Of a stretch of 64,000 bases of DNA, positions 24,459-42,321 are shown in pieces. Below the pieces are notes generated by a model. That model saw only the letters and a program-made list of their open reading frames with translations, had not been told where the DNA came from and did not search any database. How positions within the stretch are numbered: the first letter of the stretch is position 1; each line of letters begins with the position of its first letter. Both the position numbers and the translations under genes were made by a program. Origin of the DNA: Gammaproteobacteria bacterium (GTDB lineage: Bacteria; Pseudomonadota; Gammaproteobacteria; Steroidobacterales; Steroidobacteraceae); NCBI GenBank assembly GCA_037200125.1, contig JBBCGS010000002.1:763488-827487 (forward strand), written 5' to 3'.

Positions 24459-24474
24459 GGTCAGACGCTCGCGC

Positions 24475-25119: not shown

Positions 25120-25121
25120 CG

Positions 25122-28057: not shown

Positions 28058-29266
28058 TCAGACCCACAAGCGAGTGGCGAGCCAGAACGTGCCGCATCCC
28101 GCCACAACCGCCGCGCTGGCATCGATCACAAAGGCGCGGGTACGTTCGAAGCCGCGCATGCGGAACAGCAGCAGTGCCCCCACGAGCAGACCGGCCACGA
28201 CCGTTTCGATGAGCAAGGCACCGAGATTGATGCTCGTCAGCAAGCTGACCTCGACCTGCGACGCTAGCCGCGCCGGCTCAATTGCCGCCGCCCACAGAAA
28301 TCCGTCCAGGAAGCCGAGCACCGCCGCGAGTAGCGGTGCCACCATCGGCGAGGTTTCACCGCGCGGAGTAGCTGCGGAGAACCCGGCGGAAATGACCGCT
28401 CCACCCAGCAGCAGCCACGCCGCCGCCGCGCGGTCGATCGACGCGGCGACGATCGCAGCGAGCAGCAGCAGACCGATCCATCCGGCGACGATTGGCCGCC
28501 GTTTCTCCGTTCGGGCAAGAACCACCGCGAGCGCTGCAAGCGCGGCAAGCAGGCCGACGAACGCGTGCACCGGTGTTGCGACGGGCGTGATCCAACCGGC
28601 CTGCGAGATCGCGATGGAGGCGCTGTAACCCAGCGCGAGAGCCAGAACCGCGTAAGCCAGGTCGCGACGTCTCCGGATGACCAGCGCCAGACCCAGAACG
28701 ACGCAAAGCAGGTCGGCGTTACGCAAGACCCGCTCGGCACCGAGGCGCAGATACATCGCCGCGTCCGGCCTTCTCAGCGCACCGTCGTCGGGAAGTTGCC
28801 ATTGCCGGTCGCTCGCCGTGAAGAGATGCTCGACGTCACGCCCCGCCTGGTAAACCCGCGCAATGTGGAGATGATCCGGAATACGCGCGAACAACGCGTC
28901 ATCCCGCAGCACTATCTGGCGTGGATCCTCACATCGATAAAAGATTTCGAAGCCATACAGACCAGCGCCCACCGACAACGGATCGACCCGGCCGAGGTCA
29001 TAGCCCTGATCGAGCGCCTCGCAGGCACCGCTTGCCGAACGTACCGACACCGTTCCGAGCAGGTACTGCGCGAGCTTCGCAACAGTGGCAACGGGCATGT
29101 CGCGCCCGATCAATCGCTGGGCGTCAGGAACGGGTAACAGGAATCGCAGCGTGACGGTTTTGCCGGAGATCACCCAGGTGGAGTAACTCACGCTCTGCGT
29201 TTCGGCGCAGGCCTGGCCCACCCACAGCGCCAGCAGGCCGAGCACGATCCAGCGCGGCGCTTTCAC
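28058..29266 (-). CDS. HupE/UreJ-family Ni/Co transporter with N-terminal periplasmic domain
   Basis: Signal peptide plus an about 170-aa soluble domain, then six TM helices of HupE/UreJ type. Its start overlaps the stop of the upstream SurA-like gene. Confidence 0.75.
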   Translation of the reverse strand: MKAPRWIVLGLLALWVGQACAETQSVSYSTWVISGKTVTLRFLLPVPDAQRLIGRDMPVATVAKLAQYLLGTVSVRSASGACEALDQGYDLGRVDPLSVGAGLYGFEIFYRCEDPRQIVLRDDALFARIPDHLHIARVYQAGRDVEHLFTASDRQWQLPDDGALRRPDAAMYLRLGAERVLRNADLLCVVLGLALVIRRRRDLAYAVLALALGYSASIAISQAGWITPVATPVHAFVGLLAALAALAVVLARTEKRRPIVAGWIGLLLLAAIVAASIDRAAAAWLLLGGAVISAGFSAATPRGETSPMVAPLLAAVLGFLDGFLWAAAIEPARLASQVEVSLLTSINLGALLIETVVAGLLVGALLLFRMRGFERTRAFVIDASAAVVAGCGTFWLATRLWV

Positions 29267-30216
29267 TGTGGCTGCTCGGGCGAATAGACGATTTCCGCTT
29301 GGCTGCGCAGCGCCTTCAGAGTCTCTTGAGTCGCGCGCTGTGCTTCGTCCGTTCGCAGATCGTCGTACACACGCGACCTGGCGGCGGCGAAGTCGGCCAC
29401 CCTCGCCGGCTCATGCCGCTGCATGATGAGAATGTGCACGCCGTCGGTCTCGACGACCGGGTCCGAAACTTCACCGTCACGCAGTGCTTCCGCAACCGGA
29501 TAGAGTTTCGGGCCCAGCTGTCGCCTGGCCAGGAGGTCTGACGCGGCGGCCTGCTCCATGCGCCCGGAGCTCACGAGGCCGAAATGCTCCCGCACCTGAT
29601 CGAGCGGTACACCTGCGCGCAGCTGATAGACCGCTTCAGCGGCGTCGGCCAGCGCCTGTGCGGTGGTCTGATCCGCATTCTGGTAACCCCCCACACCCAG
29701 CACGAGATCCACCAAGGTCATGTCGCTTCTCTGCGTGTAGCGCGAGAGGTTCGCCTCATAGAACGCGCGCAAATCCGCTTCGGTGGGCGTCCGGGCGAGC
29801 ACCTGCGCGGCAATCTGATTGTTGACCGCGACCGTCATGATGTCGCGCACGTCGATGGTGGTTTCCGGCAGATCGAGCGCCAGCGCGCGCTGGACGAGCA
29901 GTTCCTCGTCGATCATCCGCTCGAGCACCGCCTTGCGCGCGGCCGGGCTCGCTTCATCGAAACCGACGCCCTCATCACTCTGCGTCTGAGTGATCCAGTC
30001 GCTGACGAGAACGCCCTTCTGGTTGACGAGGGCGACGTAACCGGGCGGCACTTTCACCAGGTGCCGGGGGGCCGTGCGAAACAGCCCCAGCCCCGCGAGC
30101 ACGAGCCCGACGAATACCGCGAAAGCAGACAGTACCGCCGAGCGATGCGGGGTAGACGACGCCACATCGAGCAGGCGTCGGATCCGCAGCGAGCGTTTCT
30201 CCGGAGCAACCGACAT
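29263..30216 (-). CDS. Periplasmic SurA-N-terminal-domain chaperone-like protein (PPIase-family-like)
   Basis: ATG at 30216 verified (MSVAPEKRSLRI..). A signal-anchor is followed by a SurA_N-like helical domain (EELLVQRALALDLPETTIDVRDI...). No clear parvulin catalytic motif was recognised. Confidence 0.6.
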   Translation of the reverse strand: MSVAPEKRSLRIRRLLDVASSTPHRSAVLSAFAVFVGLVLAGLGLFRTAPRHLVKVPPGYVALVNQKGVLVSDWITQTQSDEGVGFDEASPAARKAVLERMIDEELLVQRALALDLPETTIDVRDIMTVAVNNQIAAQVLARTPTEADLRAFYEANLSRYTQRSDMTLVDLVLGVGGYQNADQTTAQALADAAEAVYQLRAGVPLDQVREHFGLVSSGRMEQAAASDLLARRQLGPKLYPVAEALRDGEVSDPVVETDGVHILIMQRHEPARVADFAAARSRVYDDLRTDEAQRATQETLKALRSQAEIVYSPEQPQ

Positions 30217-30218
30217 CT

Positions 30219-30956
30219 TCAAGGCTCTCCGGCGAGTTTCATTTCTGTCTGGGGCGGATGAGAGGCTTCGTGGAGGTAAACCGCCAGCGCGCGAATCTCC
30301 ACGAGACTCAGCGCCCTCCGCCATCCGGGCATGATGTGGCGCTGACCGTTGTAGATGGCATTGAAGAGCGCCTGCCGGTCGCCCCCGCTGTTCCACACAT
30401 TAGCGGTCAGATCCGGCGCCCCGTAATCCGTATTGCCGCGTCCATCCGGTCCGTGGCAATCGAAGCAACCCGCCGCTCCAAGAAACAGCTCGCGTCCGTC
30501 GGCGGCGGGCGCCGGCTGGAAGGCACGCCCGCTGAGTTGCAGGACGTACTCGACGACACTCTGGATCTGGGCGCTACTCAAGACTCCCGTCAGCCCGAAG
30601 GCAGGCATCGAGGTTATGTCGCGCCCCTTCGACTCTCCGGAACGAATGCCATACAACACGGTGCGTTCGATGTCGTAGACGTCGCCGCTGCCGTAGAGGG
30701 AAACGGCGTCGACGAGGTTTGGAGCGCCCAGGTCCGACCGGCCGCGCATGTCCGCGCCGTGGCAGGACGCGCAATGTTTCGCATACACGGGTGCCGCTTC
30801 GTCGGCGGCGAAGCGTACAAGGGCGGGGTCCGAGGCGGCAGCATTCGGCAACACTGACAGGAGGCGGTCTTCCATGCGAGCGTGCCGACCGTACAGCAGC
30901 GCGGCCACGACGGAGATGGAAATCAAAAGGACCAACAGTGCCGCGGTCTTTATCAC
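30219..30956 (-). CDS. Dihaem c-type cytochrome
   Basis: Two CxxCH motifs (CASCH, CFDCH) after an N-terminal membrane anchor/signal (VIKTAALLVLLISISVVAALL). GTG start at 30956. Its stop abuts the SurA-like start. Confidence 0.75.
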   Translation of the reverse strand: MIKTAALLVLLISISVVAALLYGRHARMEDRLLSVLPNAAASDPALVRFAADEAAPVYAKHCASCHGADMRGRSDLGAPNLVDAVSLYGSGDVYDIERTVLYGIRSGESKGRDITSMPAFGLTGVLSSAQIQSVVEYVLQLSGRAFQPAPAADGRELFLGAAGCFDCHGPDGRGNTDYGAPDLTANVWNSGGDRQALFNAIYNGQRHIMPGWRRALSLVEIRALAVYLHEASHPPQTEMKLAGEP

Positions 30957-31013
30957 GATCTGCGATGCCCTACACTCTGCGCTACTATACCGCGCCGCCC
31001 TACCGTAGCACCC

Positions 31014-32987
31014 ATGGTCACCCCCGAAACGGATCACACGAAGTCGGCCGAGCTCGTAGTGCCTCGCTCTCATCGCCTCGTGCGACGACTGGCCATGGTG
31101 TACGGAGCTCTCGCCCTCGCGATGGCCGGGCTGCTGTGCGCGGACGCGTTACCGCGCGGGATCGCGCTCCAAGCCGTCGCACATGAAGCGATCGTAGGTG
31201 GGCTCGCCGGGACGGTGCTGCCAACGCTGCTCCTTGCGTTGGCCGGCTTGCTCGGCACTCTTGCGCTGACGACCGCACGCTTCCGCTCCGGATCGCCCGC
31301 CGCCGCGAACGCCCGCTGGTCGCGACTTCTGCAGAACCCCGGATCCGCAGCGCGCCTCGGCCAGGCAGTCGTCATACCCGCCAGCGCGGTAGTCATCTAC
31401 GTGGTCGTGCGCTTGCTGTGGCCCGGCTCTGCTCCGTCGGTCAGCTCCACGAGCGCCAACATCGGTGGCGCGCTCACCTTCGCGCTGACGTTCACTTCAC
31501 TGGTCGCACAACGCACGATCGCGGAGTTCCCGGAACCGCAGTTGCCGGAAGCGCCGGCGCTACGTCGCTTGCTCCTTCTCGTGACCGTCCTGCTCGGAGT
31601 CGCCGCCTGTATCGAACTCGGTCGTGGCGCGATGCTCGATTGGGTGCGGTGGCCGCAGTACGCGATTGCGGTAGTCACGGTCCTGATTGCCGTTGAGCTT
31701 TCGCTGCGCGCGTTCGCACGCCTGTTCCTGCCGAGCCCTGCCGCCGCGAAGGCCAGAGCGGTGGTGGATAGCGTTCTGGTCGCTGCGCTCACGGGCCGCC
31801 CACGCTCACCCGGCTCGTTGTTACGCACCCACCTGGGCCTCGACTTCGCGCGCAGCTGGGCTCTCTCCTTCCTGAGCGCCGCCCTCCTGCCCGCGCTGTT
31901 GATCACGGCGTTGTTCTGCTGGGGCCTCACCGGATTGAAGCTCGTCGATCTCGGACACCGCGGTATCTACGAACGCTTCGGCGCCCCGGTCGAAGTGCTC
32001 GGCCCGGGTTTGCACCTGATACTGCCATGGCCCTTTGGGCGCCTGCGCCCCGTCGAGTTTGGCACCATTCACTCCGTGGCCATCGGCGTGGACAGCATGG
32101 CAAAGGACGACGCGCAGCAGATCGGTGCGGAAGATGTCCCGCAGGCCAGCCTGAATCGGCTGTGGGAAACCGCGCATTCCGGTCAGGCTTACTATCTCAT
32201 TGCGAGTCTCGGCAGCGGCCAGCAAGGCTTCCAAAGCGTCGCCACCGAGATCAGCGTGCTGTATCGGGTCGGGTTGTCGGACGAAGCAGCCCTGCAGTCG
32301 AACTACGCGGTCGCCGATCCCGAATCGCTGATTCGACAAGCGGGCAGCCGCATGGCGCTGCGCTACTTCAACTCCCGGACGCTCGAGTCGGTGCTCGGCG
32401 CGAGTCGCGAGACGGTGGCCGCCTCGATGCGTGACGCCCTCACCGCGGACGTGAACAGTCATCGCGCGGGGCTCGAAATCGTCTCCGTGCTGATCGAGGA
32501 AATCCATCCGCCCGCTGGCGCCGCCGCGGCTTATCACGCCGTGCAGGCGGCGCAGATCAACGCGAGCGCGAGCATCTCGAACGAGCGGGGGCGCGCGAAG
32601 CGCGTGGCCGGCGTCGCTCAGCAGGAGGCGCACCAGCTCACCGCGTCCGCCGATGCCACCGCCACCGAACGGTTGCGCGCGGCCGATGCCGATGCGTACC
32701 GTTTTGCCGCCGAGCGTCGAGCCCATGCGGAGGCCGGTCAGGCGTATCTGTTCGAGCGCTCGCTCACCGGCCTGCGGGCGGCGCTCGCGCAGAAACCGCT
32801 GATCCTGATCGATCATCGCCTGAGCGCGGCGCAAGCGCCGATCTTCGACCTGCGCTCCGCCGAACAGCAGAACGATACGTCCAGCGACCCGCTCAACGAG
32901 CTGCTATCGCCGCCGCCCGCGCCGGAAGGCGGCATACCGCCGAGCGCGCGCGAGCCGTTCGGGCCCGAGGCGCGGCCGTCGAAATGA
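31014..32987 (+). CDS. SPFH/band-7 (HflK-like) protein with large N-terminal polytopic membrane domain
   Basis: About 330 aa with 8 or more hydrophobic helices. Then an SPFH domain (LKLVDLGHRGIYERFGAPVEVLGPGLHLILPWPFGRL...) and an HflK-type Ala/Glu/Arg-rich coiled C-terminus. Confidence 0.75.
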   Translation: MVTPETDHTKSAELVVPRSHRLVRRLAMVYGALALAMAGLLCADALPRGIALQAVAHEAIVGGLAGTVLPTLLLALAGLLGTLALTTARFRSGSPAAANARWSRLLQNPGSAARLGQAVVIPASAVVIYVVVRLLWPGSAPSVSSTSANIGGALTFALTFTSLVAQRTIAEFPEPQLPEAPALRRLLLLVTVLLGVAACIELGRGAMLDWVRWPQYAIAVVTVLIAVELSLRAFARLFLPSPAAAKARAVVDSVLVAALTGRPRSPGSLLRTHLGLDFARSWALSFLSAALLPALLITALFCWGLTGLKLVDLGHRGIYERFGAPVEVLGPGLHLILPWPFGRLRPVEFGTIHSVAIGVDSMAKDDAQQIGAEDVPQASLNRLWETAHSGQAYYLIASLGSGQQGFQSVATEISVLYRVGLSDEAALQSNYAVADPESLIRQAGSRMALRYFNSRTLESVLGASRETVAASMRDALTADVNSHRAGLEIVSVLIEEIHPPAGAAAAYHAVQAAQINASASISNERGRAKRVAGVAQQEAHQLTASADATATERLRAADADAYRFAAERRAHAEAGQAYLFERSLTGLRAALAQKPLILIDHRLSAAQAPIFDLRSAEQQNDTSSDPLNELLSPPPAPEGGIPPSAREPFGPEARPSK

Positions 32988-33040
32988 GGACGCGCGATTT
33001 CATGAAGGCCCTTTACCCGACCGCCGCCGAGCCATAAGTC

Positions 33041-34153
33041 ATGTCCAACGATCACACCGCACGGCCTCATGATGATGACGATCACGATCATGACCATGAC
33101 CATGACCATGACCATGACCATGACCATGACCATGACGATGATCACGACCACGATCATGATGACGATCATCACGGGTTCGGCGCGCCGGCGCGCATTGGTG
33201 TCGCCGCGGCCATCCTGGTCGCCGCCGTTGCGGCGGCCTGCATCGTCATGATCCCAGCGGGCGAAGCGGGCGTTATCACGCGATTCGGTAATCCGAGTCG
33301 CGTCGTCACCGATCCCGGGCTCGCGTGGAAGTTACCGGTTCCCTTCGAGAACACGATTCCCATCGATCTGCGGCTGCGGACCACCTCCACCGGCTTGCAG
33401 GATGTGGGAACACGTGACGGTCTGCGCGTGCTCGTGCAGGCATACGTCGCGTGGCAGGTGCCCAACGATCCGCAGCGTATACGGCAGTTTCTGCGCTCGG
33501 TGCGCAACCAGCCGGACGAAGCCGCGCGCCAGCTGCGCAGCTTCGTGAGCGCGGCCATGCATATCACCTCGAGCAACTTCGAGCTCAGCGAGCTCGTCAA
33601 CGTGAGCGCCGACCGGGTTCGTCTCGAAGCGTTCGAGAACCAGCTGCGCGAGCAGGTTGCGCCTCGCATGCTGGAGGTCTACGGCATCGATATCCGCCAG
33701 GTCGGCGTCGAGCGGATGACGCTCCCCGATGAGACGCTCGCGGCGACCGTCGAGAGAATGCGCGCCGAACGAGAAACCGTCGCGGCCGAACGTACCGCCG
33801 AAGGTTTGCGGCAAGCCGCCGCCATCCGCGCCGATGCGGACCGCGATGCGCGCAAAGTAGTGGCCGAAGCGAAAACCCAGGCGGCACGTACCGAGGCCGA
33901 TGCGCAACAAGCGGCCGCGCGCACTTACGCGAAGGCTTATCAGACGGATCCGGGGCTCTACACCACGCTGCGTTCGCTCGATTCGATGAATCAGGTCATC
34001 GGCCGCAACACGAGTGTCGTGTTACGGACAGATGCCGCGCCGTTTCGAGTGTTGGTCGATGGCCCCGCAGGCGCAGGTGGACGTGCAAGCACCTCAGTAG
34101 CCGCGGGGGCGCCTGTCGCTGCAGCCGACGCGGCTAAAAAGAAGACGCCGTGA
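33041..34153 (+). CDS. SPFH/band-7 (HflC-like) protein with N-terminal (His-Asp)n metal-binding tract
   Basis: N-terminus MSNDHTARPHDDDDHDHDHDHDHDHDHDHDHDDDHDHDHDDDHHG, then a TM helix, an SPFH domain and an HflC-like coiled-coil tail. Confidence 0.85.
   Translation: MSNDHTARPHDDDDHDHDHDHDHDHDHDHDHDDDHDHDHDDDHHGFGAPARIGVAAAILVAAVAAACIVMIPAGEAGVITRFGNPSRVVTDPGLAWKLPVPFENTIPIDLRLRTTSTGLQDVGTRDGLRVLVQAYVAWQVPNDPQRIRQFLRSVRNQPDEAARQLRSFVSAAMHITSSNFELSELVNVSADRVRLEAFENQLREQVAPRMLEVYGIDIRQVGVERMTLPDETLAATVERMRAERETVAAERTAEGLRQAAAIRADADRDARKVVAEAKTQAARTEADAQQAAARTYAKAYQTDPGLYTTLRSLDSMNQVIGRNTSVVLRTDAAPFRVLVDGPAGAGGRASTSVAAGAPVAAADAAKKKTP
33068..33175. repeat. GATCAY/GACCAT hexanucleotide repeat encoding (His-Asp)n
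   Basis: Directly visible (gatcacgatcatgaccatgaccatgac...). The antisense 'MMIVIMIVVV..' ORF 32813..33172 is a translation artefact of this repeat. Confidence 0.9.
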
Positions 34154-35244
34154 ACGAGCCGGCGCACACCGCTGGCGCGGGCGAACACCCGGAGCGGGTG
34201 GGACCGCCCCCGGTACCACCACCGGGTCCGATCGCGCAGTCCGTCGCCATCGGTTTTCGCGCGGTGTATGTGGCGGGCGTTTTGCTCCTGTTGCTCTGGT
34301 TGTTGAGCAACGTGCACGAGATCCCCTCCGATAGTCAGGCGGTCGTGCAGCGATTCGGTCGCATCGTCCGAACCAAGGAAGCGGGGCTGCTGATTGCCTG
34401 GCCGCGGCCCATCGAGCAGATCCGGCTACTGCCCGGGCCCGACAGGCAACTGAGCCAGGAAGTCGGAACGTTGCCGCCGGCAACGGAAAAGGCGCGAAGC
34501 CTGGTGGGGCCATTCGCCAAGACACAGTCGATGCCGGCGAATGCCTCGGCGTATCTCACCGGCGATGGCAACGTCGTACTCCTGAGCGCGGCGCTGATCT
34601 ATCGCATCAGTGACGCGACCCGCTACTCGCTAGCGCAGACGCACGTGTCGCCGGCGCTCGATCGCCTCTTCCACTCCGCAACGGTGCGCGTCACGGCGGG
34701 ACGGAACCTGAATGACTTTCTGGTCGTACAGACCGGCAGTCAAGGGGCCAACAGCGCCGCGATAGCCCTGCGCAGCGAAGTGCGCGACGCGCTTCTGCAA
34801 TCCATGAACGCGCGCCTGCATGAGCTCGCGAAAGGCGGCGCGTCCCTTGGAGTCGAAGTCGAACGCATCGACATGACTGCCTGGCTGCCTCCGCAGGCCA
34901 AATCGGCATTCGATGCGGTGCTGATCGCCACCCAGGCCGCCGATCGCGGCGTGGCGGTTGCGCGTACCGACGCGGAGCGGCGCCGGCAGGAGGCCAATCG
35001 CCTTCGCGATCAGTTGTTGAGCGGAGCGCAGGCCACCGCGCAAGAACTGCTCAGCAGCGCAAGCGTGAACACCGCGGGCATCCTCGCGCTCGAGCAGGAA
35101 GCAACGCCCCAGACACGCGGCACACTGCTCTTGCGGGAGTATCGTGAGCAGGTCACCAACATCATGAACCGCGCCGGATCGGCCACACTGGTCGATCCGC
35201 AAGGCGGAACGCGCCTCGTACTACCGGGAAGAAAAGCCAAATGA
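34150..35244 (+). CDS. SPFH/band-7 (HflK-like) protein
   Basis: ATGA overlap with the previous gene. N-terminal TM (AVYVAGVLLLLLWLL), an SPFH domain and an Ala/Arg/Glu-rich C-terminal region. Confidence 0.8.
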   Translation: MNEPAHTAGAGEHPERVGPPPVPPPGPIAQSVAIGFRAVYVAGVLLLLLWLLSNVHEIPSDSQAVVQRFGRIVRTKEAGLLIAWPRPIEQIRLLPGPDRQLSQEVGTLPPATEKARSLVGPFAKTQSMPANASAYLTGDGNVVLLSAALIYRISDATRYSLAQTHVSPALDRLFHSATVRVTAGRNLNDFLVVQTGSQGANSAAIALRSEVRDALLQSMNARLHELAKGGASLGVEVERIDMTAWLPPQAKSAFDAVLIATQAADRGVAVARTDAERRRQEANRLRDQLLSGAQATAQELLSSASVNTAGILALEQEATPQTRGTLLLREYREQVTNIMNRAGSATLVDPQGGTRLVLPGRKAK

Positions 35245-37193
35245 GCGGCATGCACCATCTGTCTTCCGCCGCCGGTCATCATGGCCCGCGCCCCGGAGCA
35301 CTCCTCAACCGCGTCGAACGGCTGATGCTCGGGTTGCGCTTGTCGCTCGCCCTCGCGGCGCTGTGCCTGCTGCTCGTGGCGACGGCGATCAGTTACTTCC
35401 TGCCTTCCGAACGAGGCATCGCGGAGCTCGTCGCCGGCATCGCCGCCGCGCTCGTTGCGGTTCCGGTTTTTGTCGAGGCATGGGCGAGCCTGCGCCACCC
35501 GAGCCTGCACGGCATTACGGATCGTCTCGTCGCGCTGGCGCTCATCGCCGCGTGGGCGACCGGCGATCTCATGACCGCCGCGCTGTTGCCCATCATCATG
35601 ACCGTGGGCCATGTGCTCGAAGAGCGCAGCATGCTGGGCTCCCACGAAGCCGTGAAAGCACTCACGCGCCTGACCGCCGGCGATGCCCGTCGTCTGTTGC
35701 CCGGCGGGGCTACGGAAACGGTTCCGAACGAGCAGCTGCGTGTCGGCGACGTCATCGAGTTGCGTGCCGGCGAACGCGTGCCGGCGGACGGAGTCATTCG
35801 CAAGGGCAACTCGAGCCTCGACCTGGCATCGCTCACCGGTGAGTCGGTGCCGGTCGAAGTGCACGAAGGCGACGCCGCGCTGGCCGGCGCGATGAATCTC
35901 GACGGCCTGGTGCACCTCGAATTGACTCGCGTGGGCCAGGAAAGCACGGTCGGCCGCATCATCGAACTGATGCGCGAAGCCGAACATGCCAAGCCGCCGG
36001 TAACGCGACTCCTGGACCGCTATGCCGGGCAATACATGACGCTGGTGCTGCTGGTGGCCGGCGGAACGTGGCTTCTGAGCGGCAACGTGCCGGCGATGCT
36101 CGCGGTGCTGGTGGCTTCTTGCCCGTGCGCACTGGTTCTCGCGGCACCGGCAACCGCCGTGGCGGCGATCGCGGTGGCCTCCCGGCACGGCATCCTGATC
36201 AAGGGCTCGGGGTTCCTCGAGCACCTCGCGGATGTCTCCTCCGTCATCTTCGACAAGACCGGAACGCTGACCACGGGCGAGCTGCGCATGGCCGCGCTGG
36301 TGCCGGCCGAAGGCGTCGACCCCAACGCGCTTCGACAGCTTGCCGGTAGCCTGGGCGCCGGGAGCAACCATCCGCTCAGCCGCGCCGCCGCCGCGGCGGT
36401 TCCCAAATCCGAACGTCTCGTGATCGACGACGCGCGCGAGCTTGGTGGATTCGGCGTCACAGGCCTCTATGCCGGCGAAGTGGTGGCGCTCGGCCGTGCC
36501 GACCTCTTCGAACGCATCTCGGTGGCGGCGCCTCCTCCGCCCTCGCACAACGGACCGATCGCCGGCGTGAGCCGCGACGGACGCTTCCTCGGCTGGCTGC
36601 TCTTTTTCGATCAATTGCGCGTGAGCGCGCAAGGCGCCGTTCAGGATCTGAAGGGGCTCGGCATCGAACACATGGTGCTGCTCACGGGCGATCGCGAACC
36701 TGTCGCGCGGCAAGTGGCGGACGAGATCGGCATTCAGGAGATCTGGGCCGACATGCTGCCCGAGCAGAAAATGGATCGGGTGATGCACGAGATCAAGATC
36801 GGCCACCGCCCGATGGTGGTCGGTGACGGTATCAACGATTCGCTCGCGCTGCGCGCGGGCGCCGTGGGTGTCGCGATGGGGACGCAGGGCGCCGATGTGG
36901 CGCTCGCCTCCGCCGATATCGCACTGATGACCAACGATCTGCGGCGGCTCGGCACCTGCATCCGCCTGAGCCGGCGCTGCCGGCGCACGATCTATGTGAA
37001 CGTCGGGGTCGGGCTGGGATTCACTTTCGGGCTGATCGTGCTGTCCGGGGCGGGTGTTCTGGGACTGCAGGCGCCGATCATCGCGGCGCTGCTCCACAAC
37101 GTCAGCACCTTCATTGGGCTCGGGAACGCGGGCCGGCTGCTGTTGTTCGATGAGACGCAGACCGCAAATGCGGCCCCGTCGACGCATGGCTAA
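35241..37193 (+). CDS. Heavy-metal-translocating P1B-type ATPase, short P1B-4-like form (no N-terminal HMA domain); predicted Co/Ni/Zn exporter
   Basis: ATGA overlap with the upstream SPFH gene. TGES, SCPCAL in TM6, DKTGTLT, GDGINDS. The C-terminal helix HNVSTFIGLGNAGRLL resembles the P1B-4 HEGST..N..RLL signature. 650 aa with no CxxC metal-binding domain. Confidence 0.88.
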   Translation: MSGMHHLSSAAGHHGPRPGALLNRVERLMLGLRLSLALAALCLLLVATAISYFLPSERGIAELVAGIAAALVAVPVFVEAWASLRHPSLHGITDRLVALALIAAWATGDLMTAALLPIIMTVGHVLEERSMLGSHEAVKALTRLTAGDARRLLPGGATETVPNEQLRVGDVIELRAGERVPADGVIRKGNSSLDLASLTGESVPVEVHEGDAALAGAMNLDGLVHLELTRVGQESTVGRIIELMREAEHAKPPVTRLLDRYAGQYMTLVLLVAGGTWLLSGNVPAMLAVLVASCPCALVLAAPATAVAAIAVASRHGILIKGSGFLEHLADVSSVIFDKTGTLTTGELRMAALVPAEGVDPNALRQLAGSLGAGSNHPLSRAAAAAVPKSERLVIDDARELGGFGVTGLYAGEVVALGRADLFERISVAAPPPPSHNGPIAGVSRDGRFLGWLLFFDQLRVSAQGAVQDLKGLGIEHMVLLTGDREPVARQVADEIGIQEIWADMLPEQKMDRVMHEIKIGHRPMVVGDGINDSLALRAGAVGVAMGTQGADVALASADIALMTNDLRRLGTCIRLSRRCRRTIYVNVGVGLGFTFGLIVLSGAGVLGLQAPIIAALLHNVSTFIGLGNAGRLLLFDETQTANAAPSTHG

Positions 37194-37262
37194 CGATCTG
37201 GGCTAACGATCTGGGCTAACGATCTGGGCCAAGGATTCGGCTAGCGATTCTGGCCCATCGTC
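37185..37262. repeat. 13-bp direct repeat GGCTAACGATCTG x3, followed by 2 degenerate copies
   Basis: Directly visible: ggctaacgatctgggctaacgatctgggctaacgatctgggccaaggattcggctagcgattctggcc. It spans the 3' end of the ATPase gene and the convergent junction with cbtA. Confidence 0.8.
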
Positions 37263-38086
37263 CTCTCGCCGACGTAGCCGAACATCACGCCGATCGAGCC
37301 CCAGAGAACCGTCTGCAGCCCGATCGAGGCAACGCGGAAACTCCACAGCGTGTCGGCTGGGAAGCCGACCGGCACTTCGTTGATCGTGGGCAGAACGGTG
37401 AAGGCGAGCGCGATCACGACGAGGTACACGCCCACCGCCGCGACCGAGCTATTCCAGGCGCCGTGGCGCGCGAGCAGTCGCCGCCGCGTCATCCACGCGA
37501 CGACGGTCGCGGCGATCGAGATCGCGACCATGAGGAAGTAGAGGCCGGTTCGCAGCCGGATGGTGTCGGGCTCGCCCACCGCGGGCGGATTGGCCGGATA
37601 CTTGAGCGCCGGCACGAGATACACCGACAACAACCCGAGCGCGGAAAGCAGCGCCGCCGTGGGGCCCGCCGAGATCGCGCCGATACGCCCGTATGCCAGC
37701 GCGAACAACACCGCGAACAGGCAACCCAGGCCCGCACCGACAACCACCAGTCCGGTGAGAAGACCGATGCCACTCTGCACCGTTCGACTGAAGATCTCAG
37801 TCTCTTCATCGCCGTGATGGTGACCCGCCGGCTCCGCGGCGGCCGCTTCGGCGGCCTCGTTGTGATGATCGGCAGGCTCGGTGCCGGCTGGCTCGGCGGC
37901 CTCGGCCGCTTCATGGTGGTGACCGGCCGCTTCGGCTCCCGCCTCTTCATGCGCTTCGGAGTGCGCGGATTCGAAGGCGATAGCCGTTTCCACCTGCGCC
38001 TCGCCAAAGGCTCTCGCCCACCCGAAGGCCAGCAGCCCGGCCGCGATGCCGATGATCAACCCGAAAAGAATGAGCCGACCGACCAT
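37241..38086 (-). CDS. cbtA: Cobalt transporter subunit CbtA
   Basis: About 280 aa membrane protein with a His-rich loop (AAGHHHEAAEA...ADHHNEAAE...AGHHHGDEE) and a TM layout typical of CbtA. It follows cbtB. Confidence 0.78.
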   Translation of the reverse strand: MVGRLILFGLIIGIAAGLLAFGWARAFGEAQVETAIAFESAHSEAHEEAGAEAAGHHHEAAEAAEPAGTEPADHHNEAAEAAAAEPAGHHHGDEETEIFSRTVQSGIGLLTGLVVVGAGLGCLFAVLFALAYGRIGAISAGPTAALLSALGLLSVYLVPALKYPANPPAVGEPDTIRLRTGLYFLMVAISIAATVVAWMTRRRLLARHGAWNSSVAAVGVYLVVIALAFTVLPTINEVPVGFPADTLWSFRVASIGLQTVLWGSIGVMFGYVGERTMGQNR

Positions 38087-38120
38087 GGTTAGTTTTCCTG
38101 CTTGCGCGTCTGATGCTGGG

Positions 38121-38357
38121 CTAGTGGCAAGGAAAGCCGAGCAGGTGGCGGGCGTCGTGCACGAACTCGTGCACCCCCATGCCGCTCACGACCGACGTCG
38201 CGCCCTGCTCCGCACCCACGAAGTAGTAAGCGAAAACCATGACCAGACTTCCGAGGACCGCCCACGGCATGACTTTCCTGACGGGAATCGCAACCGGCGC
38301 GGCGGCGGCTGGGGCGGCGGCGGCGGCACTTTGTTCGGTGGGTGTGGCCATAGGCAT
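38121..38357 (-). CDS. cbtB: Cobalt transporter subunit CbtB
   Basis: 78 aa with a single TM (VMPWAVLGSLVMVFAYYFVG) and a C-terminal His-rich end (HEFVHDARH). It sits immediately upstream of cbtA. Confidence 0.72.
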   Translation of the reverse strand: MPMATPTEQSAAAAAPAAAAPVAIPVRKVMPWAVLGSLVMVFAYYFVGAEQGATSVVSGMGVHEFVHDARHLLGFPCH

Positions 38358-38462
38358 TTCCTCAGGAAAAATGTGGAAACAAGTTTAAGGCGGAAAATTC
38401 CTGTCGCCGCGGGATAATGCGCGCTCAGCGCCGCCAGCGCCCACTACGTCCATTAGACGAAC

Positions 38463-39047
38463 ATGGCTCCTCGAATAACCCTCATCTGCCATGCGACGAC
38501 TCGCGCGCTTCGCTCAGCCACGTTCGGCGGCGATGACTCGCTCGACGACATCGGCAAGAAGAAGGCGGAAAGCCTGGCCGGTTCCCTCGGCCGGGTCGAC
38601 CAGTGCTGGACCAGTCCCGCTCACGCGGCACGCGAGACCGCCGTCGCCCTTGACTTAACGGCGAACCCGGACGAGCGCCTGCGCAACTGCGATTTCGGGC
38701 GCTGGGAAGGCCTGCGCTTCCAGCAACTGCTGTTGCGCGAGCCGCGCAAGCTGGTGCGCTGGATTCGCGATCCGAGCTCGGCACCGCATGGGGGCGAATC
38801 CATCCCGCAGGTTCTCGAACGGGTGGCGGCATGGATGCATGAGCGCAGTCGCGACCCGGGCCATACTGTGGCGGTGACCCACGCCGCCGTGATCCGCGCG
38901 GCGATCGTCCACGTGATCCAGGCGCAGGTGCCCTCTTTCTGGCGCATCGATGTATTGCCGCTATCCCGCACGGAGTTCCGCACCAATGGGCGGCGCTGGG
39001 TGCTGCGATCACTGGCTTCCATGACTGGGGGCGACGATGCGGGCTGA
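38463..39047 (+). CDS. Histidine-phosphatase (phosphoglycerate-mutase) family protein, CobC/alpha-ribazole-phosphatase-like, with atypical RHG motif (CHA)
   Basis: ITLICHATTRAL...GLSPLGR-like region and a C-terminal VAVTHAAVIRA (second catalytic His). 194 aa. Divergent from cbtB. Confidence 0.6.
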   Translation: MAPRITLICHATTRALRSATFGGDDSLDDIGKKKAESLAGSLGRVDQCWTSPAHAARETAVALDLTANPDERLRNCDFGRWEGLRFQQLLLREPRKLVRWIRDPSSAPHGGESIPQVLERVAAWMHERSRDPGHTVAVTHAAVIRAAIVHVIQAQVPSFWRIDVLPLSRTEFRTNGRRWVLRSLASMTGGDDAG

Positions 39048-39080: not shown

Positions 39081-40910
39081 ATGGAGCTGACCCAAAAGCC
39101 GCTGCGGATCTTCGCAAGCTGCGTCATCGCGGCGCTGGTCGCCATCGCGCTGGTCAATCTCTACCAGGCCAAACACTCCCTGCCGGCGAGCAAAACGATC
39201 CCGTACACGCAGTTCCTGGATGCCGTCGAGCAAGGCCGCGTACGCACCGTGAAGATCGACGGAAACGAGATCGTCGGCGCATACACCGATCGCGGGCTCT
39301 TTCGCACGTATGCGATGAACGATCCCGACCTGCTGAGGCTGCTGCGACAAAAAACGGTCTCCATCACGGCGACAGCCGCTCCCGCTGGCGGCGGCTCCGC
39401 GTGGCCCGCCGTGTTGAGCGCTTTGATCCCGACGCTGCTGCTGGTAGGGCTCGTGCTGTTTTTCATGCGTCGTATGCCGGGGCTCAGCGGCGCGGGGGGG
39501 ATGGGTCTCGGCAAATCCAAGGCGAAGCTGCTGACCGCGGCCTCCGGCCGGGTCACGTTCGCCGACGTCGCGGGCGTCGATGAAGCCAGGGAGCGTTTGC
39601 AGGAGATCGTCGACTTCCTGCGCGATCCACAGAAATTCCAGCGCCTCGGCGGACGCATTCCGCGCGGCGTATTGATGGTGGGCGCGCCGGGCACCGGCAA
39701 AACCCTTCTCGCCCGCGCGGTTGCCGGCGAAGCGAACGTGCCGTTCTTCACGATCTCGGGCTCGGACTTCGTGGAAATGTTCGTGGGCGTCGGCGCGTCG
39801 CGCGTGCGGGACCTGTTCACGCAGGCGAAGAAGAGCGCCCCATGCATCATCTTCATGGATGAGATCGACGCGGTCGGCCGGCGCCGGGGCGCGGGCGTTG
39901 GCGGCGGCAACGACGAACGCGAGCAGACGTTGAACCAGCTGCTCGTGGAGATGGATGGCTTCGAATCGAACGAGAGCATCATCCTGATCGCCGCGACCAA
40001 TCGCCCGGACGTGCTCGATCCCGCCCTGCTGCGCCCCGGACGGTTCGATCGCGAGATCGTCGTCAGCAATCCCGACGTGCTCGGCCGGGAGCGGATTCTC
40101 GAGGTTCACCTCCGCAAGGTTCCACTCGCGCCGGAGGTGGACCTCAAGCTCATTGCGCGGCGCACGCCGGGCTTCTCGGGCGCGGATCTCATGAACCTCG
40201 TCAACGAGGCCGCCCTTCTCGCCGCGCGTCGTGCCCGGGAAACGGTGGGAATGCGGGAGTTCGAGGATGCCAAAGACACCGTGACCATGGGCGCCGAACG
40301 GCGCACCCACGTGATGACCGAAGACGAGAAGCGCCTCACCGCCTATCGCGAGGGCGGCCGCGCAATCGTGGCGCTGCACGTGCCCGCGGCCGATCCGGTG
40401 CACAAGGCCACGATTCTGACGCGCGGCCGGACGACCGGAATGGTCAAGCAGTTGCCCGAGACGGATCAGTTGTCCGTCACCCTCGAGCAGATGAACTCAC
40501 GCCTCGCCATCATGATGAGCGGCCGGGCGGCCGAGGAAATGATCTTCGGCCCGGAGAAAGTGACTTCCGGAACCGCGGGCGACATCGAAGAGGCGACTCA
40601 GCTTGCGCGCACGATGGTCACGCGCTGGGGACTTTCCGAAGCGCTGGGAACCGTGGCGTACGGCGAGAACACCGACGAGGTGTTCCTCGGGCACTCGGTG
40701 GCGCGTCGGCAAAATATCTCGGAACAGACCGCCCAGGTGATCGCGGTCGAGGTGCGCAAGCTCATCGACGCGGCTCGCACGGAAGCGCAGCGCATCCTCG
40801 GCGAGCAGCGCGCCCAGCTCGAAACGCTTGCGCAAGCGCTGCTCCAGCACGAAACGCTCAGCGGCGAGGACATCCAGAACCTGCTGGCGCGTAACACGCC
40901 AGGCGCATAA
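39081..40910 (+). CDS. ftsH: ATP-dependent zinc metalloprotease FtsH
   Basis: Walker [18 protein letters not shown] zinc-binding motif and N-terminal TM/periplasmic domain. Confidence 0.95.
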
Positions 40911-41382: not shown

Positions 41383-42009
41383 ATGCGCAAAAAATCCAAG
41401 ACGCCCACCGAAACGAAAAGCTTCCGTTCGTTCGCTTCGTTCCGCCTGCACAAGCTCGCGAGACTTTCAGATCGCATGCACGAGCGGCAGTACCAGCGCG
41501 ACTTCGGGCTGAATCTGCGTGAATACCGCATCATCGGCCTGACCGGGTCGCTGGGCGGTGCCTCGTTCCGGCGTATCTGCGCGGAGTCGGGCCTCGACAA
41601 GGCGCATGTAAGCCGGCTCATCGCGCGACTCATCAAGCGTGGCTTCCTCAGCAAGCGGGCCGATCCAACCGACCAGCGAACGGTGAACGTCACTCTCACC
41701 GAGCGTGGCAAGGCGGTGCGCGATGGCCTGCATGCCGCTTCGGCCAAGCTGAATGAGCAATGGCTTGCAGCGCTCCCGGCGACCCAGCGAACGGCGTTCT
41801 TGTCCGCGCTGGATACGCTCCACGAGCGCGCGCAGGCCATCGCGGACGACCGCGAGCAGGCCGCCGCCGCCTCGGGGAGCAAGCGGATCGTCCGCAAAAA
41901 AGCCCCGGCCGGCGCGCGCCCGGCTCCGAAAGGCAAGGTCGTGCTGAACAAGGCGATGGCCACCCAGCTTCTCGGCGTGCTGAACGCCGCGCTCGGCAAG
42001 CGCGGCTGA
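41383..42009 (+). CDS. MarR-family transcriptional regulator
   Basis: wHTH core LNLREYRIIGLTG...SRLIARLIKRGFLSKRADPTDQRTVNVTLTERG matches MarR. Confidence 0.8.
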   Translation: MRKKSKTPTETKSFRSFASFRLHKLARLSDRMHERQYQRDFGLNLREYRIIGLTGSLGGASFRRICAESGLDKAHVSRLIARLIKRGFLSKRADPTDQRTVNVTLTERGKAVRDGLHAASAKLNEQWLAALPATQRTAFLSALDTLHERAQAIADDREQAAAASGSKRIVRKKAPAGARPAPKGKVVLNKAMATQLLGVLNAALGKRG

Positions 42010-42321
42010 GCCGCGAGCCCGGGCCGCGCGCGCCCGCACGCCTCGCTCGCAAGGCGATGAATCGCCGCGCAATGCCGTCTCAACTTTCGTTGACGGTGAC
42101 AACGTTGTATGTTCACCCGGTCGGGATGCCGTTTTTTGGCCGTGCCACGCAGCGTGGGGGGACGGTGCAGCCTGTTGGTGTGAATACCATCATTGGCCGC
42201 CCGTAGACACCGGTGGGTTGCCGAGCTAAGAAGGACGCATCGCGATACGGGGCAACGAGGGGACAACTGCTTGTACTGGCGGTTCGGCGTTGGCGTTGAT
42301 GAATACTCGAGGCGCATCGCC

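What the first reader, a model, noticed from the sequence alone, without database searches (positions are those of the whole stretch)
31014..37193. Three consecutive SPFH (HflK/HflC/flotillin-like) scaffold proteins translationally coupled to a short P1B-4-type metal-exporting ATPase
The four genes overlap by ATGA or are spaced by about 50 nt, so this looks like one operon. The first SPFH protein has an unusual N-terminal membrane domain of about 330 aa with 8 or more helices. The second carries a 27-residue (His-Asp)n tract next to its membrane anchor. The third is a plain HflK-like protein. The ATPase lacks an N-terminal HMA domain and has the P1B-4-like HNVST...RLL C-terminal helix. I am not aware of a dedicated SPFH-scaffold + heavy-metal P-type ATPase module being reported. 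The scaffold could cluster the pump in membrane microdomains, the HD tract could hand metal to or from the pump, or the SPFH proteins could protect the pump from the nearby FtsH protease at 39081.
Basis: partly seen in the sequence, partly recalled or inferred. Interest (0 to 1): 0.75.

Follow-up and report, generated by a model that had tools for sequence, protein, structure and literature searches.

The report
Scaffold-protein trio with a metal pump
Three membrane scaffold proteins (relatives of HflK/HflC) and a metal-pumping ATPase form one tightly packed operon found in at least four bacterial classes and on plasmids; its Pseudomonas aeruginosa counterpart (PA2439-PA2435, pump HmtA) is already known to switch on under zinc starvation, but what the scaffolds do for the pump has never been studied.

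Summary
The four genes exist as described: S1 31014-32987, S2 33041-34153, S3 34150-35244 and the ATPase 35241-37193, with GTGA and ATGA overlaps. The arrangement is strongly conserved. 58 of 62 loci with enough sequence keep the order S1-S2-S3-ATPase, across Gamma-, Beta- and Alphaproteobacteria and Acidobacteriota. All 11 plasmids that carry the pump also carry S1.

The module is not unreported. It matches the Zur-regulated, zinc-starvation-induced PA2439-PA2435 (hmtA) cluster of P. aeruginosa. Published hmtA qPCR primers map onto the Pseudomonas module pumps at homologous sites, and all 19 Pseudomonas loci carry a Zur box upstream of S1.

The pump is not P1B-4. It has an invariant CPC plus HN(V/L)ST signature.

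New here:
- S2's His-rich tail recurs in 49 of 72 homologues.
- The neighbouring FtsH has lost its zinc site (REGGR for HEXXH) and travels with the module.

Transport direction, the metal carried and the scaffold's role remain inferred. No Zur box is detectable in this window.

The parts
31014..32987 (+). S1: 657-aa HflK-like SPFH protein with an N-terminal polytopic domain
   Evidence: Band_7 at aa 311-527. Best PDB sequence matches are HflK chains (7vhq_E 3.3e-6, 7vhp_E 1e-5). M1 and the PRSHRLVRRL stretch are conserved in homologues, which fixes the start.
31059..31727 (+). S1 N-terminal six-helix membrane bundle (aa 16-238) with a fold like the transmembrane domain of CDF zinc transporters
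31839..31955 (+). S1 seventh membrane helix (aa 276-314), the anchor preceding the SPFH domain
   Evidence: With a positively charged N-terminus, six helices and a positively charged loop at aa 240-278, this helix would place the SPFH domain in the periplasm. This is an inference.
33041..34153 (+). S2: 370-aa HflC-like SPFH protein
   Evidence: Band_7 1.5e-30. TIGR01932 (hflC) scores 117.6 bits, below the 134.4 cutoff. Best PDB match is HflC, 9.4e-24.
33068..33172 (+). 35-residue His/Asp-only tract at the S2 N-terminus, encoded by a (CATGAC)n repeat
   Evidence: 49 of 72 S2 homologues carry a His-rich N-terminal tail with at least 4 His, including Pseudomonas, Janthinobacterium and alphaproteobacteria.
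34150..35244 (+). S3: 364-aa HflK-like SPFH protein; GTG start overlapping the S2 stop (GTGA)
   Evidence: Band_7 3.1e-14. Best PDB matches are HflK chains (9paw_XA 2.6e-6, 7vhp_E 4e-6). Overlap shown.
35241..37193 (+). HmtA-type P1B ATPase, 650 aa, without an HMA domain. TGES at aa 199, CPC at 294, DKTGT at 338, GDGIND at 528, HNVST at 619. ATG overlaps the S3 stop (ATGA).
   Evidence: Published PAO1 hmtA qPCR primers map to homologous sites in the Pseudomonas orthologues.
37241..38086 (-). cbtA: CbtA-family metal permease subunit with His-rich loops, convergent with the pump gene
   Evidence: PF09490, 8.9e-74. Found beside the module or its FtsH paralogue in many loci.
38121..38357 (-). cbtB: small CbtB-like subunit upstream of cbtA
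   Evidence: PF09489, 26.8 bits against a cutoff of 27. A CbtB gene sits at the same position in L083, L085 and L086. No cobalamin riboswitch in the window.
38463..39047 (+). Histidine-phosphatase (branch 1) gene immediately upstream of the FtsH paralogue
   Evidence: PF00300, 2.1e-31. TIGR03162 (CobC) scores only 97.7 bits against a 162.9 cutoff. It is paired with the FtsH gene in every locus where that gene is complete; in L028 the contig starts inside ftsH.
39081..40910 (+). FtsH paralogue with intact AAA+ motifs but REGGR in place of the HEXXH zinc site (aa 423-427, nt 40347-40361)
   Evidence: REGGR is kept in 10 co-located orthologues from 3 classes. 87 of the top 120 homologue clusters have REGGR. 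All 3 FtsH-centred look-ups land next to S1 or the whole module.
28058..31073 (-). Divergent trio: membrane-anchored dihaem cytochrome c (30219-31073), Rotamase_2 PPIase-like protein (29263-30396) and HupE/UreJ_2 membrane protein (28058-29266)
   Evidence: The trio is co-conserved with the module in Steroidobacteraceae and several Alphaproteobacteria. It lies either divergent upstream or directly after the pump on the same strand (L034, L039, L040, L052, L077, with L056 cut off after the cytochrome gene; also L085, L086).

Best explanation
This is a Steroidobacteraceae-type copy of the HmtA module, the conserved four-gene operon that in P. aeruginosa is PA2439-PA2438-PA2437-(PA2436)-PA2435.

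Shown:
- The operon encodes two HflK-like proteins and one HflC-like SPFH protein, plus a distinct clade of P1B ATPase (CPC in TM4, HN(V/L)ST in M6, no HMA domain).
- The four genes are inherited as a unit across phyla and on plasmids.
- The Pseudomonas members sit behind a Zur box.

Inferred:
- The three SPFH proteins have HflK/C topology (N-terminus in the cytoplasm, SPFH domain in the periplasm). They assemble into an HflK/C-like ring or cage that corrals and stabilises the pump in a membrane patch.
- In this lineage the cage also holds a zinc-site-less FtsH paralogue.
- The cytoplasmic His/Asp tail of S2 stands in for the metal-binding domain the pump lacks, buffering or handing over metal at the pump's cytoplasmic face.
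- The CDF-like six-helix domain of S1 offers a second, proton-coupled route for the metal.

Proposed role: handling a scarce divalent metal (zinc first, possibly copper or cobalt) under starvation, rather than detoxification. The direction of pumping is unresolved.
For: Conservation:
- 58 of 62 loci are colinear, with 4-nt overlaps as the median spacing.
- The same 11 PLSDB plasmids carry both the pump (at least 56% identity; the next best hit is only about 35%) and S1.

Link to hmtA:
- The literature describes PA2439, PA2438 and PA2437 as HflK/HflC-family genes next to hmtA. They rise 9- to 14-fold in a znuA mutant, Zur binds the PA2439 promoter, and the proteins increase under zinc depletion.
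- The PAO1 hmtA primers translate to IEITRT and LLVLLI. They map to IEVTRTG and VLVLLIA in the Pseudomonas module pumps, with 1-3 and 5-7 mismatches out of 20 and a constant 123-nt spacing in five of the six genes tested (in L078 the weaker primer's best match fell elsewhere). 15 of 16 hits with at most 2 mismatches in 1.43 Mb fall at that site.
- GTGTTATATCGTAACGC, or a close variant of it, lies upstream of S1 in 19 of 19 Pseudomonas loci. The predominant form fits the published Zur consensus and resembles the PA4063 box.

Components:
- HflK/HflC are the best structural-sequence matches for S1, S2 and S3.
- The His-rich S2 tail occurs in 49 of 72 homologues, usually with Arg just before the helix.
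- The S1 N-terminal domain resembles CDF transporters.
- The FtsH(REGGR) paralogue co-travels with the module. In L011 the order is HisPhos-FtsH-S1-S2-S3-ATPase on one strand.

Context: the window also holds a PA1922-25-like set (TonB-dependent receptor, CobN-like, ExbB, DUF2149), CbtAB, a HupE-like protein and a ZIP transporter.
Against: - No Pseudomonas-type Zur box exists upstream of S1, or anywhere in this window (best PWM score 4.2 bits against 20-32 for true boxes). Zinc regulation here is extrapolated.
- One study saw no zinc repression of hmtA mRNA (PMC8531726).
- The PAO1 protein sequences could not be fetched, so orthology rests on primers, gene content and the Zur box.
- No data show that the SPFH proteins touch the pump.
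- A third of S2 homologues lack the His tail.
- The CDF resemblance is fold-level only (8-12% identity, no Pfam hit), and no canonical HxxxD/DxxxD site is evident.
- Every structurally characterised P1B pump exports, which sits awkwardly with an uptake role.
Confidence: 0.6

Rival explanations
1. Detoxification platform. The pump exports excess Zn, Co, Cd or Ni. The SPFH proteins cluster it in microdomains, and the His/Asp tail feeds metal to it, like the PacL-Ctp effluxosomes of mycobacteria.
For: All structurally characterised P1B ATPases export, and the pump's best PDB matches are the exporters sCoaT and ZntA. Copies sit on plasmids, one of them conjugative and next to a Tn3 transposase. 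PacL1 offers a precedent for a His-rich scaffold encoded upstream of a P1B pump.
Against: The only studied member is induced by zinc depletion and bound by Zur. The Pseudomonas loci carry a Zur box and lie beside folE2 and COG0523-type genes. No MerR-, ArsR- or two-component metal-excess regulator is adjacent in the window or the plasmids. The neighbours are uptake-type genes: CbtAB, HupE-like, a TonB-dependent receptor and ZIP.
Confidence: 0.15
2. Proteostasis unit. S1-S3 are adaptors of an FtsH-type machine, as HflK/C are for FtsH. The pump is their regulated client: it is held, unfolded or removed according to metal status. The scaffold has no direct role in transport.
For: HflK/HflC are the closest solved relatives. 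A dedicated FtsH paralogue co-travels with S1, and in L028 and L083 it does so without S2, S3 or the pump. A PpiD-like PPIase is co-conserved.
Against: The partner FtsH lacks both zinc-binding histidines, so it is predicted to be unable to degrade. Pseudomonas and plasmid copies have no linked FtsH paralogue. The His tail and the CDF-like domain point to metal handling by the scaffold itself.
Confidence: 0.15
3. Gene neighbourhood without physical coupling. The SPFH trio and the pump are co-regulated members of one stress regulon but act independently.
For: No interaction data exist. HmtA expressed alone in E. coli already changes cellular metal content.
Against: Strict colinearity with 4-nt overlaps is kept across several classes and on plasmids. 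Pump and S1 co-occur in 11 of 11 plasmids. The S1 N-terminal domain is found nowhere else.
Confidence: 0.07

Closest known systems
P. aeruginosa PA2439-PA2435 cluster (HflK-family, HflC, HflC-family, HmtA P1B ATPase)
   Same: Same gene content and order as reported. The pump belongs to the same clade by primer mapping. The Pseudomonas members of the family carry a Zur box.
   Different: This window has no detectable Zur box. Here the module is flanked by FtsH(REGGR), a histidine phosphatase, CbtAB and a cytochrome c-PPIase-HupE trio, none of which is reported for PAO1. PAO1 has an extra small ORF, PA2436. In PAO1 the SPFH genes were only listed, never analysed.
E. coli HflK/HflC-FtsH complex (PDB 7vhp, 7wi3)
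   Same: S2 matches HflC and S1 and S3 match HflK by sequence. All have a single anchor helix before the SPFH domain. An FtsH-family gene is linked.
   Different: Scores fall below the NCBIfam equivalog cutoffs. There are three subunits instead of two. S1 carries an extra six-helix domain and S2 a His/Asp tail. The genes are linked to a P-type ATPase rather than to hflX. The partner FtsH lacks the HEXXH zinc site.
PacL-Ctp 'effluxosomes' of Mycobacterium tuberculosis
   Same: A membrane scaffold is encoded just upstream of a P1B ATPase, with a His-rich metal motif (DLHDHDH in PacL1), and is needed there for pump stability and clustering.
   Different: PacL proteins are small DUF1490 proteins, not SPFH, and their metal motif is C-terminal. 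That system is induced by metal excess and exports. No homology to S1-S3.
P1B-4 ATPases (sCoaT, PDB 7qbz) and P1B-2 ATPases (ZntA, PDB 4umv)
   Same: These are the best solved relatives (5e-79 and 3.5e-77). The transmembrane layout is the same, with four helices before the A domain. M6 begins with His and ends in xNAxRLL as in sCoaT, and TM4 has CPC as in ZntA.
   Different: The signature is a hybrid. It has neither the SPC/HEGxT of P1B-4 nor ZntA's M5 Lys and M6 Asp (the ADTGAT stretch), and it has no HMA domain.
Cation diffusion facilitators (ZnT/SLC30, YiiP)
   Same: The S1 N-terminal bundle has the same six-helix fold and the same predicted N-in/C-in topology.
   Different: No sequence similarity, no cytoplasmic C-terminal domain and no recognisable TM2/TM5 metal site. 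It is fused instead to a seventh helix and a periplasmic SPFH domain.
Plant chloroplast FtsHi pseudo-proteases
   Same: FtsH homologues that keep the AAA+ motor but lack the HEXXH zinc site.
   Different: They are eukaryotic, part of the Ycf2 import motor, and arose independently. The reviews read here describe FtsHi only in plants and algae.

Membership tests
P-type ATPase, class P1B | DKTGT phosphorylation site, TGES, GDGxND, a Cys-Pro motif in TM4, and the TIGR01525 score | tested here: met
   DKTGT at aa 338, TGES at 199, GDGIND at 528, CPC at 294. TIGR01525 scores 494 bits against a cutoff of 346.
P1B-4 subgroup (CoaT, CzcP, PfeT) | SPC in TM4 | tested here: not met
   (S/A)CPC in all 64 aligned family members; sCoaT has SPC at the aligned site.
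P1B-4 subgroup (CoaT, CzcP, PfeT) | HEGxT in the last membrane helix | tested here: not met
   HN(V/L)ST is invariant: His and Thr are kept, but Glu is replaced by Asn.
P1B-2 subgroup (ZntA, CadA) | CPC plus a conserved Lys in M5 and an Asp in M6; usually an N-terminal HMA domain | tested here: not met
   CPC is present. M5 reads GLGFTFG with no Lys, M6 has HNVST where ZntA has ADTGAT, and there is no HMA hit.
HmtA module (PA2439-PA2435 type) | Three SPFH genes followed by the pump in one transcription unit | tested here: met
   Window gene order and overlaps, compared with the published PAO1 gene list.
HmtA module (PA2439-PA2435 type) | Pump in the same sequence clade as PAO1 HmtA | tested here: inconclusive
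   The link is indirect. The two published hmtA primers map to homologous sites in the Pseudomonas module pumps, and those pumps are 55-58% identical to the window pump with conserved synteny.
HmtA module (PA2439-PA2435 type) | Zur operator upstream, and induction by zinc depletion | tested here: not met
   A Zur box is present in 19 of 19 Pseudomonas loci. It is absent from the window and from 40 non-Pseudomonas loci. Induction itself cannot be tested here.
HflK / HflC (FtsH modulators, TIGR01933 / TIGR01932) | Score above the equivalog cutoff | tested here: not met
   S1 scores 61.4 and S3 56.0 against 159.4. S2 scores 117.6 against 134.4.
HflK / HflC (FtsH modulators) | Band_7 domain after a single N-terminal anchor helix, with the SPFH domain in the periplasm | tested here: inconclusive
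   The Band_7 domain and anchor helix are present. The periplasmic location is inferred from homology and charge distribution only.
HflK / HflC (FtsH modulators) | Functional partnership with a proteolytically active FtsH | not testable with these tools
   Only gene linkage to an FtsH paralogue is seen, and that paralogue lacks HEXXH.
Cation diffusion facilitator (for the S1 N-terminal domain) | Six-helix transmembrane fold | tested here: met
Cation diffusion facilitator (for the S1 N-terminal domain) | Pfam Cation_efflux sequence match, a TM2/TM5 metal site, and a cytoplasmic C-terminal domain | tested here: not met
   No Pfam hit. No non-S1-type relatives by phmmer. The C-terminal domain is replaced by TM7 plus SPFH. 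Conserved polar residues (E58, N149, E201, E228) do not form the canonical motifs.
FtsH (TIGR01241), for the gene at 39081 | AAA+ Walker A, Walker B and SRH motifs, and an M41 domain | tested here: met
   806 bits against a cutoff of 600. [16 protein letters not shown] and the SRH motif are present.
FtsH (TIGR01241), for the gene at 39081 | HEXXH zinc-binding catalytic motif | tested here: not met
   REGGR at aa 423-427, conserved in co-located orthologues. Unrelated paralogues keep HEGGH.
PacL (DUF1490) scaffolds | DUF1490 domain | tested here: not met
   S1-S3 hit only Band_7-type (SPFH) families in Pfam. The resemblance is functional, not homologous.

The most novel reading that the evidence does not exclude
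The three SPFH proteins build an HflK/C-like vault over a membrane patch that holds both the P1B pump and the CDF-like domains of S1. The result is a semi-enclosed periplasmic chamber in which metal is cycled or concentrated: pumped out by the ATPase and returned, or handed on, through the proton-coupled CDF-like path and CbtAB. In this lineage a zinc-free FtsH motor also sits inside.

Such a two-transporter compartment would explain how an 'exporter-type' pump yields net metal gain under starvation, which is the HmtA paradox. It would also be a new use of SPFH cages: a metal-handling organelle rather than a protease regulator.
Probability: 0.12. Interest if true: 0.85.

Novelty: new variant of a known kind. 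Interest (0 to 1): 0.55.

Why it matters
HmtA has been cited since 2009 as the odd P1B ATPase that imports metal. It has always been studied alone, outside its operon.

This analysis shows that the pump is never encoded alone. It is locked to three HflK/C-like proteins in at least four bacterial classes and on plasmids. One of these proteins carries a CDF-like membrane domain and another a His-rich tail. Any account of HmtA's direction and specificity probably has to include these partners, and that is directly testable in P. aeruginosa or P. syringae.

The analysis also gives SPFH cages a candidate client other than FtsH.

Finally, it flags a bacterial FtsH clade that has lost its zinc site yet stays linked to SPFH genes. 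The FtsH literature read here describes such pseudo-proteases only in plants and algae.

Tried and rejected
1. A cobalamin riboswitch or any other Rfam family in the window: none at gathering threshold. CbtAB here is therefore not evidently B12-controlled.
2. A Zur box in the window: neither the consensus pattern nor a PWM built from nine PAO1 boxes finds anything. Aligning the region upstream of S1 showed only a shared TACTATA-like element in part of the Steroidobacteraceae loci, probably the -10 box.
3. Fetching PAO1 HmtA directly failed:
   - The genome scan kept only the best 80 of 214 loci, and P. aeruginosa was not among them.
   - The search with a Pseudomonas pump was saturated by relatives at 90% identity or more.
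   - The Lewinson 2009 paper and the P1B classification paper are not held.
   - The AlphaFold database library was unavailable.
   - The published qPCR primers were used instead.
4. The full-length S1 model with 15 sequences was poor in the SPFH half (pLDDT 54.6). It was used only as a lead and replaced by the N-terminal-domain model.
5. Classifying the pump as P1B-4 or P1B-2: rejected on motif grounds.
6. Literature searches for SPFH together with P1B ATPase, or HflK/HflC together with heavy-metal ATPase, found nothing beyond the three P. aeruginosa papers.
7. Internal promoters or terminators splitting the operon: none above chance.

Full report
**1. What is in the sequence**

The region holds four same-strand ORFs:
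- S1, 31014-32987, 657 aa.
- S2, 33041-34153, 370 aa.
- S3, 34150-35244, 364 aa, with a GTG start.
- A P-type ATPase, 35241-37193, 650 aa.

S2/S3 overlap by GTGA and S3/ATPase by ATGA. S1 and S2 are 53 nt apart. The scan of 30400-38500 found no promoter-like site and one terminator-like hit inside the pump gene, fewer than chance expects.

Pfam finds Band_7 (SPFH) in all three scaffold proteins, and E1-E2_ATPase plus Hydrolase in the fourth protein, with no HMA domain. NCBIfam places the ATPase in TIGR01525, the heavy-metal P1B class (494 bits against a cutoff of 346). S1-S3 hit the HflK and HflC models only below their cutoffs. Against solved structures, S2 is closest to HflC (9e-24), while S1 and S3 are closest to HflK.

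The His/Asp-only run in S2 is 35 residues long (aa 10-44) and is encoded by a (CATGAC)x11.8 repeat.

**2. Conservation**

The window matches a Gammaproteobacteria metagenome-assembled genome at 100% identity. Its nearest relatives are Steroidobacteraceae.

A scan of one genome per species returned 214 loci that encode an S1 relative, and 80 of them were fetched. I ran tblastn with the window proteins against these loci and tallied the gene order:
- 58 of 62 loci with at least 7 kb of room have S1-S2-S3-ATPase in that order.
- Two Acidobacteriota loci have S2-S3-ATPase followed by S1.
- One locus has S1 alone next to FtsH.
- The median S2-S3 and S3-ATPase spacing is -4 nt.

The hosts include Steroidobacteraceae, the Pseudomonas syringae, P. 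cichorii and P. fragi groups, Janthinobacterium, Acetobacteraceae, Rhodopila, Xanthobacteraceae, Hyphomonadaceae, Micropepsaceae, Bryobacteraceae and Terriglobia.

From the pump's side, the result is the same. In PLSDB, exactly the 11 plasmids whose pump is at least 56% identical also carry S1 about 3.5 kb away. The next-best plasmid pumps drop to about 35% identity. Two annotated examples, a conjugative Klebsiella aerogenes plasmid and a Rhizobium tumorigenes plasmid, show the same four genes with overlapping ends.

It clearly fails.

**3. The module is already on record**

In P. aeruginosa PAO1, PA2439 (HflK family), PA2438 (HflC), PA2437 (HflC family) and PA2435 (HmtA) rise 5.6- to 14-fold in a znuA mutant (PMC4542158). 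Zur shifts the PA2439 promoter in a gel assay (PMC8531726). The proteins increase under zinc depletion (PMC11761036). HmtA itself is cited as an atypical P1B ATPase that raises cellular Zn and Cu when expressed. Only three held papers mention PA2437-39, and none analyses them.

I could not retrieve the PAO1 proteins, so I tied the families together in three other ways.

First, the published hmtA qPCR primers translate to IEITRT and LLVLLI. They map onto the module pump genes of the Pseudomonas loci at the aligned positions IEVTRTG and VLVLLIA, with 5-7 and 1-3 mismatches out of 20. The spacing is a constant 123 nt in five of the six genes tested; in L078 the weaker primer's best match fell elsewhere. 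Across 1.43 Mb, 15 of the 16 hits with at most 2 mismatches are at that site.

Second, all 19 Pseudomonas loci have GTGTTATATCGTAACGC, or a close variant of it, upstream of S1. The predominant form fits the published Zur consensus GWWAYWNNNTWHCR and resembles the PAO1 PA4063 box. It scores 18 bits on a PWM built from PAO1 boxes, which themselves score 20-32.

Third, two Pseudomonas loci I read in full (L062, L063) have ORFs nearby whose N-terminal sequences look like a COG0523-type GTPase, and in L063 also FolE2, typical Zur-regulon genes. I judged this by eye and did not search it.

The Pseudomonas pumps are 55-58% identical to the window pump and share its synteny.

**4. The pump**

Its best solved relatives are sCoaT (P1B-4, 5e-79) and ZntA (P1B-2, 3.5e-77). 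In 64 aligned family members the signature is invariant: (S/A)CPCALV in transmembrane helix 4 (TM4), HN(V/L)ST...GNAGRLL in the last helix (M6), and GDLMTAALLPI.M..GHVLEERS in M2. This is neither P1B-4 (SPC, HEGxT) nor P1B-2 (M5 Lys and the M6 Asp of ADTGAT). 'Exporting' remains an assumption.

**5. The scaffolds**

An AlphaFold2 model of S1 residues 1-315, built from 91 sequences, is confident (pLDDT 86.9, pTM 0.80). It shows six long membrane helices plus a seventh that leads into the SPFH domain.

There is no sequence similarity to CDFs (8-12% identity, no Pfam hit). A phmmer search of 1.84 billion representatives finds the domain in only 164 proteins. The full-length ones are all about 610-690 aa with the domain at the N-terminus, so it exists only fused to SPFH.

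Several features fit an N-in topology for S1 with the SPFH domain in the periplasm, as in HflK. These are the positive charges at the N-terminus and in the aa 240-278 loop, together with the even helix count before TM7. This is an inference.

A His-rich N-terminal tail on S2 (at least 4 His) occurs in 49 of 72 homologues, usually followed by Arg just before the helix. This argues for a cytoplasmic tail. A third of homologues lack it.

**6. The wider island in this window**

Convergent with the pump are cbtA and cbtB, with no cobalamin riboswitch. Next come a histidine phosphatase and an FtsH paralogue.

That FtsH keeps its Walker A, Walker B and SRH motifs but has REGGR where the zinc-binding HEXXH should be. 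The same substitution is present in 10 co-located orthologues from Steroidobacteraceae, Bryobacteraceae, Acidiferrales and Alphaproteobacteria. More distant FtsH paralogues in other loci keep HEGGH. Among the 120 best homologue clusters, 87 have REGGR, 5 RESGR and 1 REGGH, against 23 with HE(A/G)GH.

I made three context look-ups starting from REGGR proteins, chosen without knowing their neighbours. All three show CbtB-CbtA and HisPhos-FtsH beside either an S1-type gene alone or the whole module. In L011 the order is HisPhos-FtsH-S1-S2-S3-ATPase on one strand.

Upstream, a dihaem cytochrome c, a Rotamase_2 protein and a HupE/UreJ_2 protein are co-conserved with the module. They lie either divergently upstream or directly after the pump.

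Further upstream lies a set resembling the Zur-regulated PA1922-25 cluster: a TonB-dependent receptor, an ExbB homologue, DUF2149 and a CobN-like protein. A ZIP transporter lies downstream.

No Pseudomonas-type Zur box exists anywhere in the window. The context is therefore suggestive of metal scarcity, but the regulation here is unknown.

**7. How it most likely works**

Shown:
- The four genes are one conserved unit.
- The pump is a distinct P1B clade.
- The scaffolds are HflK/HflC-like.
- Pseudomonas members are behind a Zur box, and the PAO1 cluster responds to zinc depletion.

Inferred:
- S1-S3 form an HflK/C-like ring that holds and stabilises the pump, and here also a zinc-free FtsH motor.
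- The S2 tail acts as an in-trans metal-binding domain for a pump that has none.
- The S1 bundle may conduct metal.

The closest functional analogy is the PacL-Ctp effluxosome of mycobacteria: a scaffold with a His-rich motif encoded upstream of a P1B pump and required for its stability. It is not homologous and responds to metal excess.

The rivals are a detoxification platform, a pure proteostasis unit, and co-regulation without contact. Each is weighed in its own section of this report. The direction of transport cannot be decided from sequence.

**8. Verdict**

However, the module is the known, barely studied hmtA cluster, not a P1B-4 exporter.

The new elements are:
- the cross-phylum and plasmid conservation;
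- the CDF-like domain of S1;
- the recurrence of the His-rich tail;
- the association with an FtsH that has lost its zinc site.

I rate it a new variant of a known kind, of moderate to good interest.

Noticed in passing
window 39081-40910 (+); motif at 40347-40361: The FtsH paralogue has REGGR instead of the HEXXH zinc site, with its AAA+ motifs intact. The substitution is conserved in co-located orthologues from three classes and in 87 of the 120 closest homologue clusters. The gene is always preceded by a histidine-phosphatase gene. The FtsH reviews read here describe zinc-site-less FtsH (FtsHi) only in plants and algae.
   Followed up: partly
window 37241-38357 (-): A cbtB-cbtA pair (annotated as 'cobalt' permease subunits) with His-rich loops in CbtA. 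No cobalamin riboswitch lies in the roughly 105-nt leader. The pair travels with the FtsH(REGGR) unit in other genomes, which hints at a role unrelated to B12.
   Followed up: partly
window 28058-31073 (-): A membrane-anchored dihaem cytochrome c, a Rotamase_2 (PpiD/SurA-like) protein and a 402-aa HupE/UreJ_2 protein form a trio. It is co-conserved with the module in about half of the loci, in two different arrangements. Its function is unknown.
   Followed up: partly
window 30950-31075: The longest reading of the cytochrome c ORF starts at 31073. That would overlap the divergent S1 start (31014) by 60 nt. The true cytochrome start is probably further in, but the two genes share almost no intergenic DNA.
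   Followed up: no
window 19802-27975: A CobN-like protein (1439 aa), DUF2149, a MotA/ExbB homologue and an unknown ORF on the minus strand face a TonB-dependent receptor. This layout resembles the Zur-regulated PA1922-PA1925 cluster of P. aeruginosa.
   Followed up: partly
window 33089-33159: The His/Asp tract is encoded by a near-perfect (CATGAC)x11.8 microsatellite. The length and composition of the tail differ widely among S2 homologues, so it may vary by slippage.
   Followed up: partly
window 37188-37253: A 13-bp unit (GGCTAACGATCTG) is repeated about 5 times. It runs from the last codons of the pump gene across the short gap into the 3' end of cbtA.
   Followed up: no
window 47844-48605 (+) and 41383-42009 (+): A ZIP-family zinc transporter and a MarR-family regulator lie a few kilobases downstream of the island. 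The MarR gene is the nearest regulator to the FtsH end.
   Followed up: no
window 42193-47770 (+): A run of genes encodes a planctomycete-type cytochrome/DUF1592/DUF1588 protein, a DUF1552 (HXXSHH) protein and a 565-aa ankyrin-repeat protein. An ankyrin-repeat gene also lies at the edge of the module locus L085.
   Followed up: no
L081 (Klebsiella aerogenes plasmid pYD-K10_1) 5134-10860; L082 (Rhizobium tumorigenes plasmid) 4862-10890: The four-gene module occurs on plasmids. One is a conjugative enterobacterial plasmid, where the module sits near a Tn3-family transposase and a DUF4198 gene. The module is therefore horizontally mobile.
   Followed up: partly
L028 1-4402; L083 9385-15240: In two Acidobacteriota-type contigs an S1-type protein follows FtsH(REGGR) directly, and S2, S3 and the pump are absent within about 10 kb. 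S1 may therefore also work with the FtsH paralogue alone.
   Followed up: no
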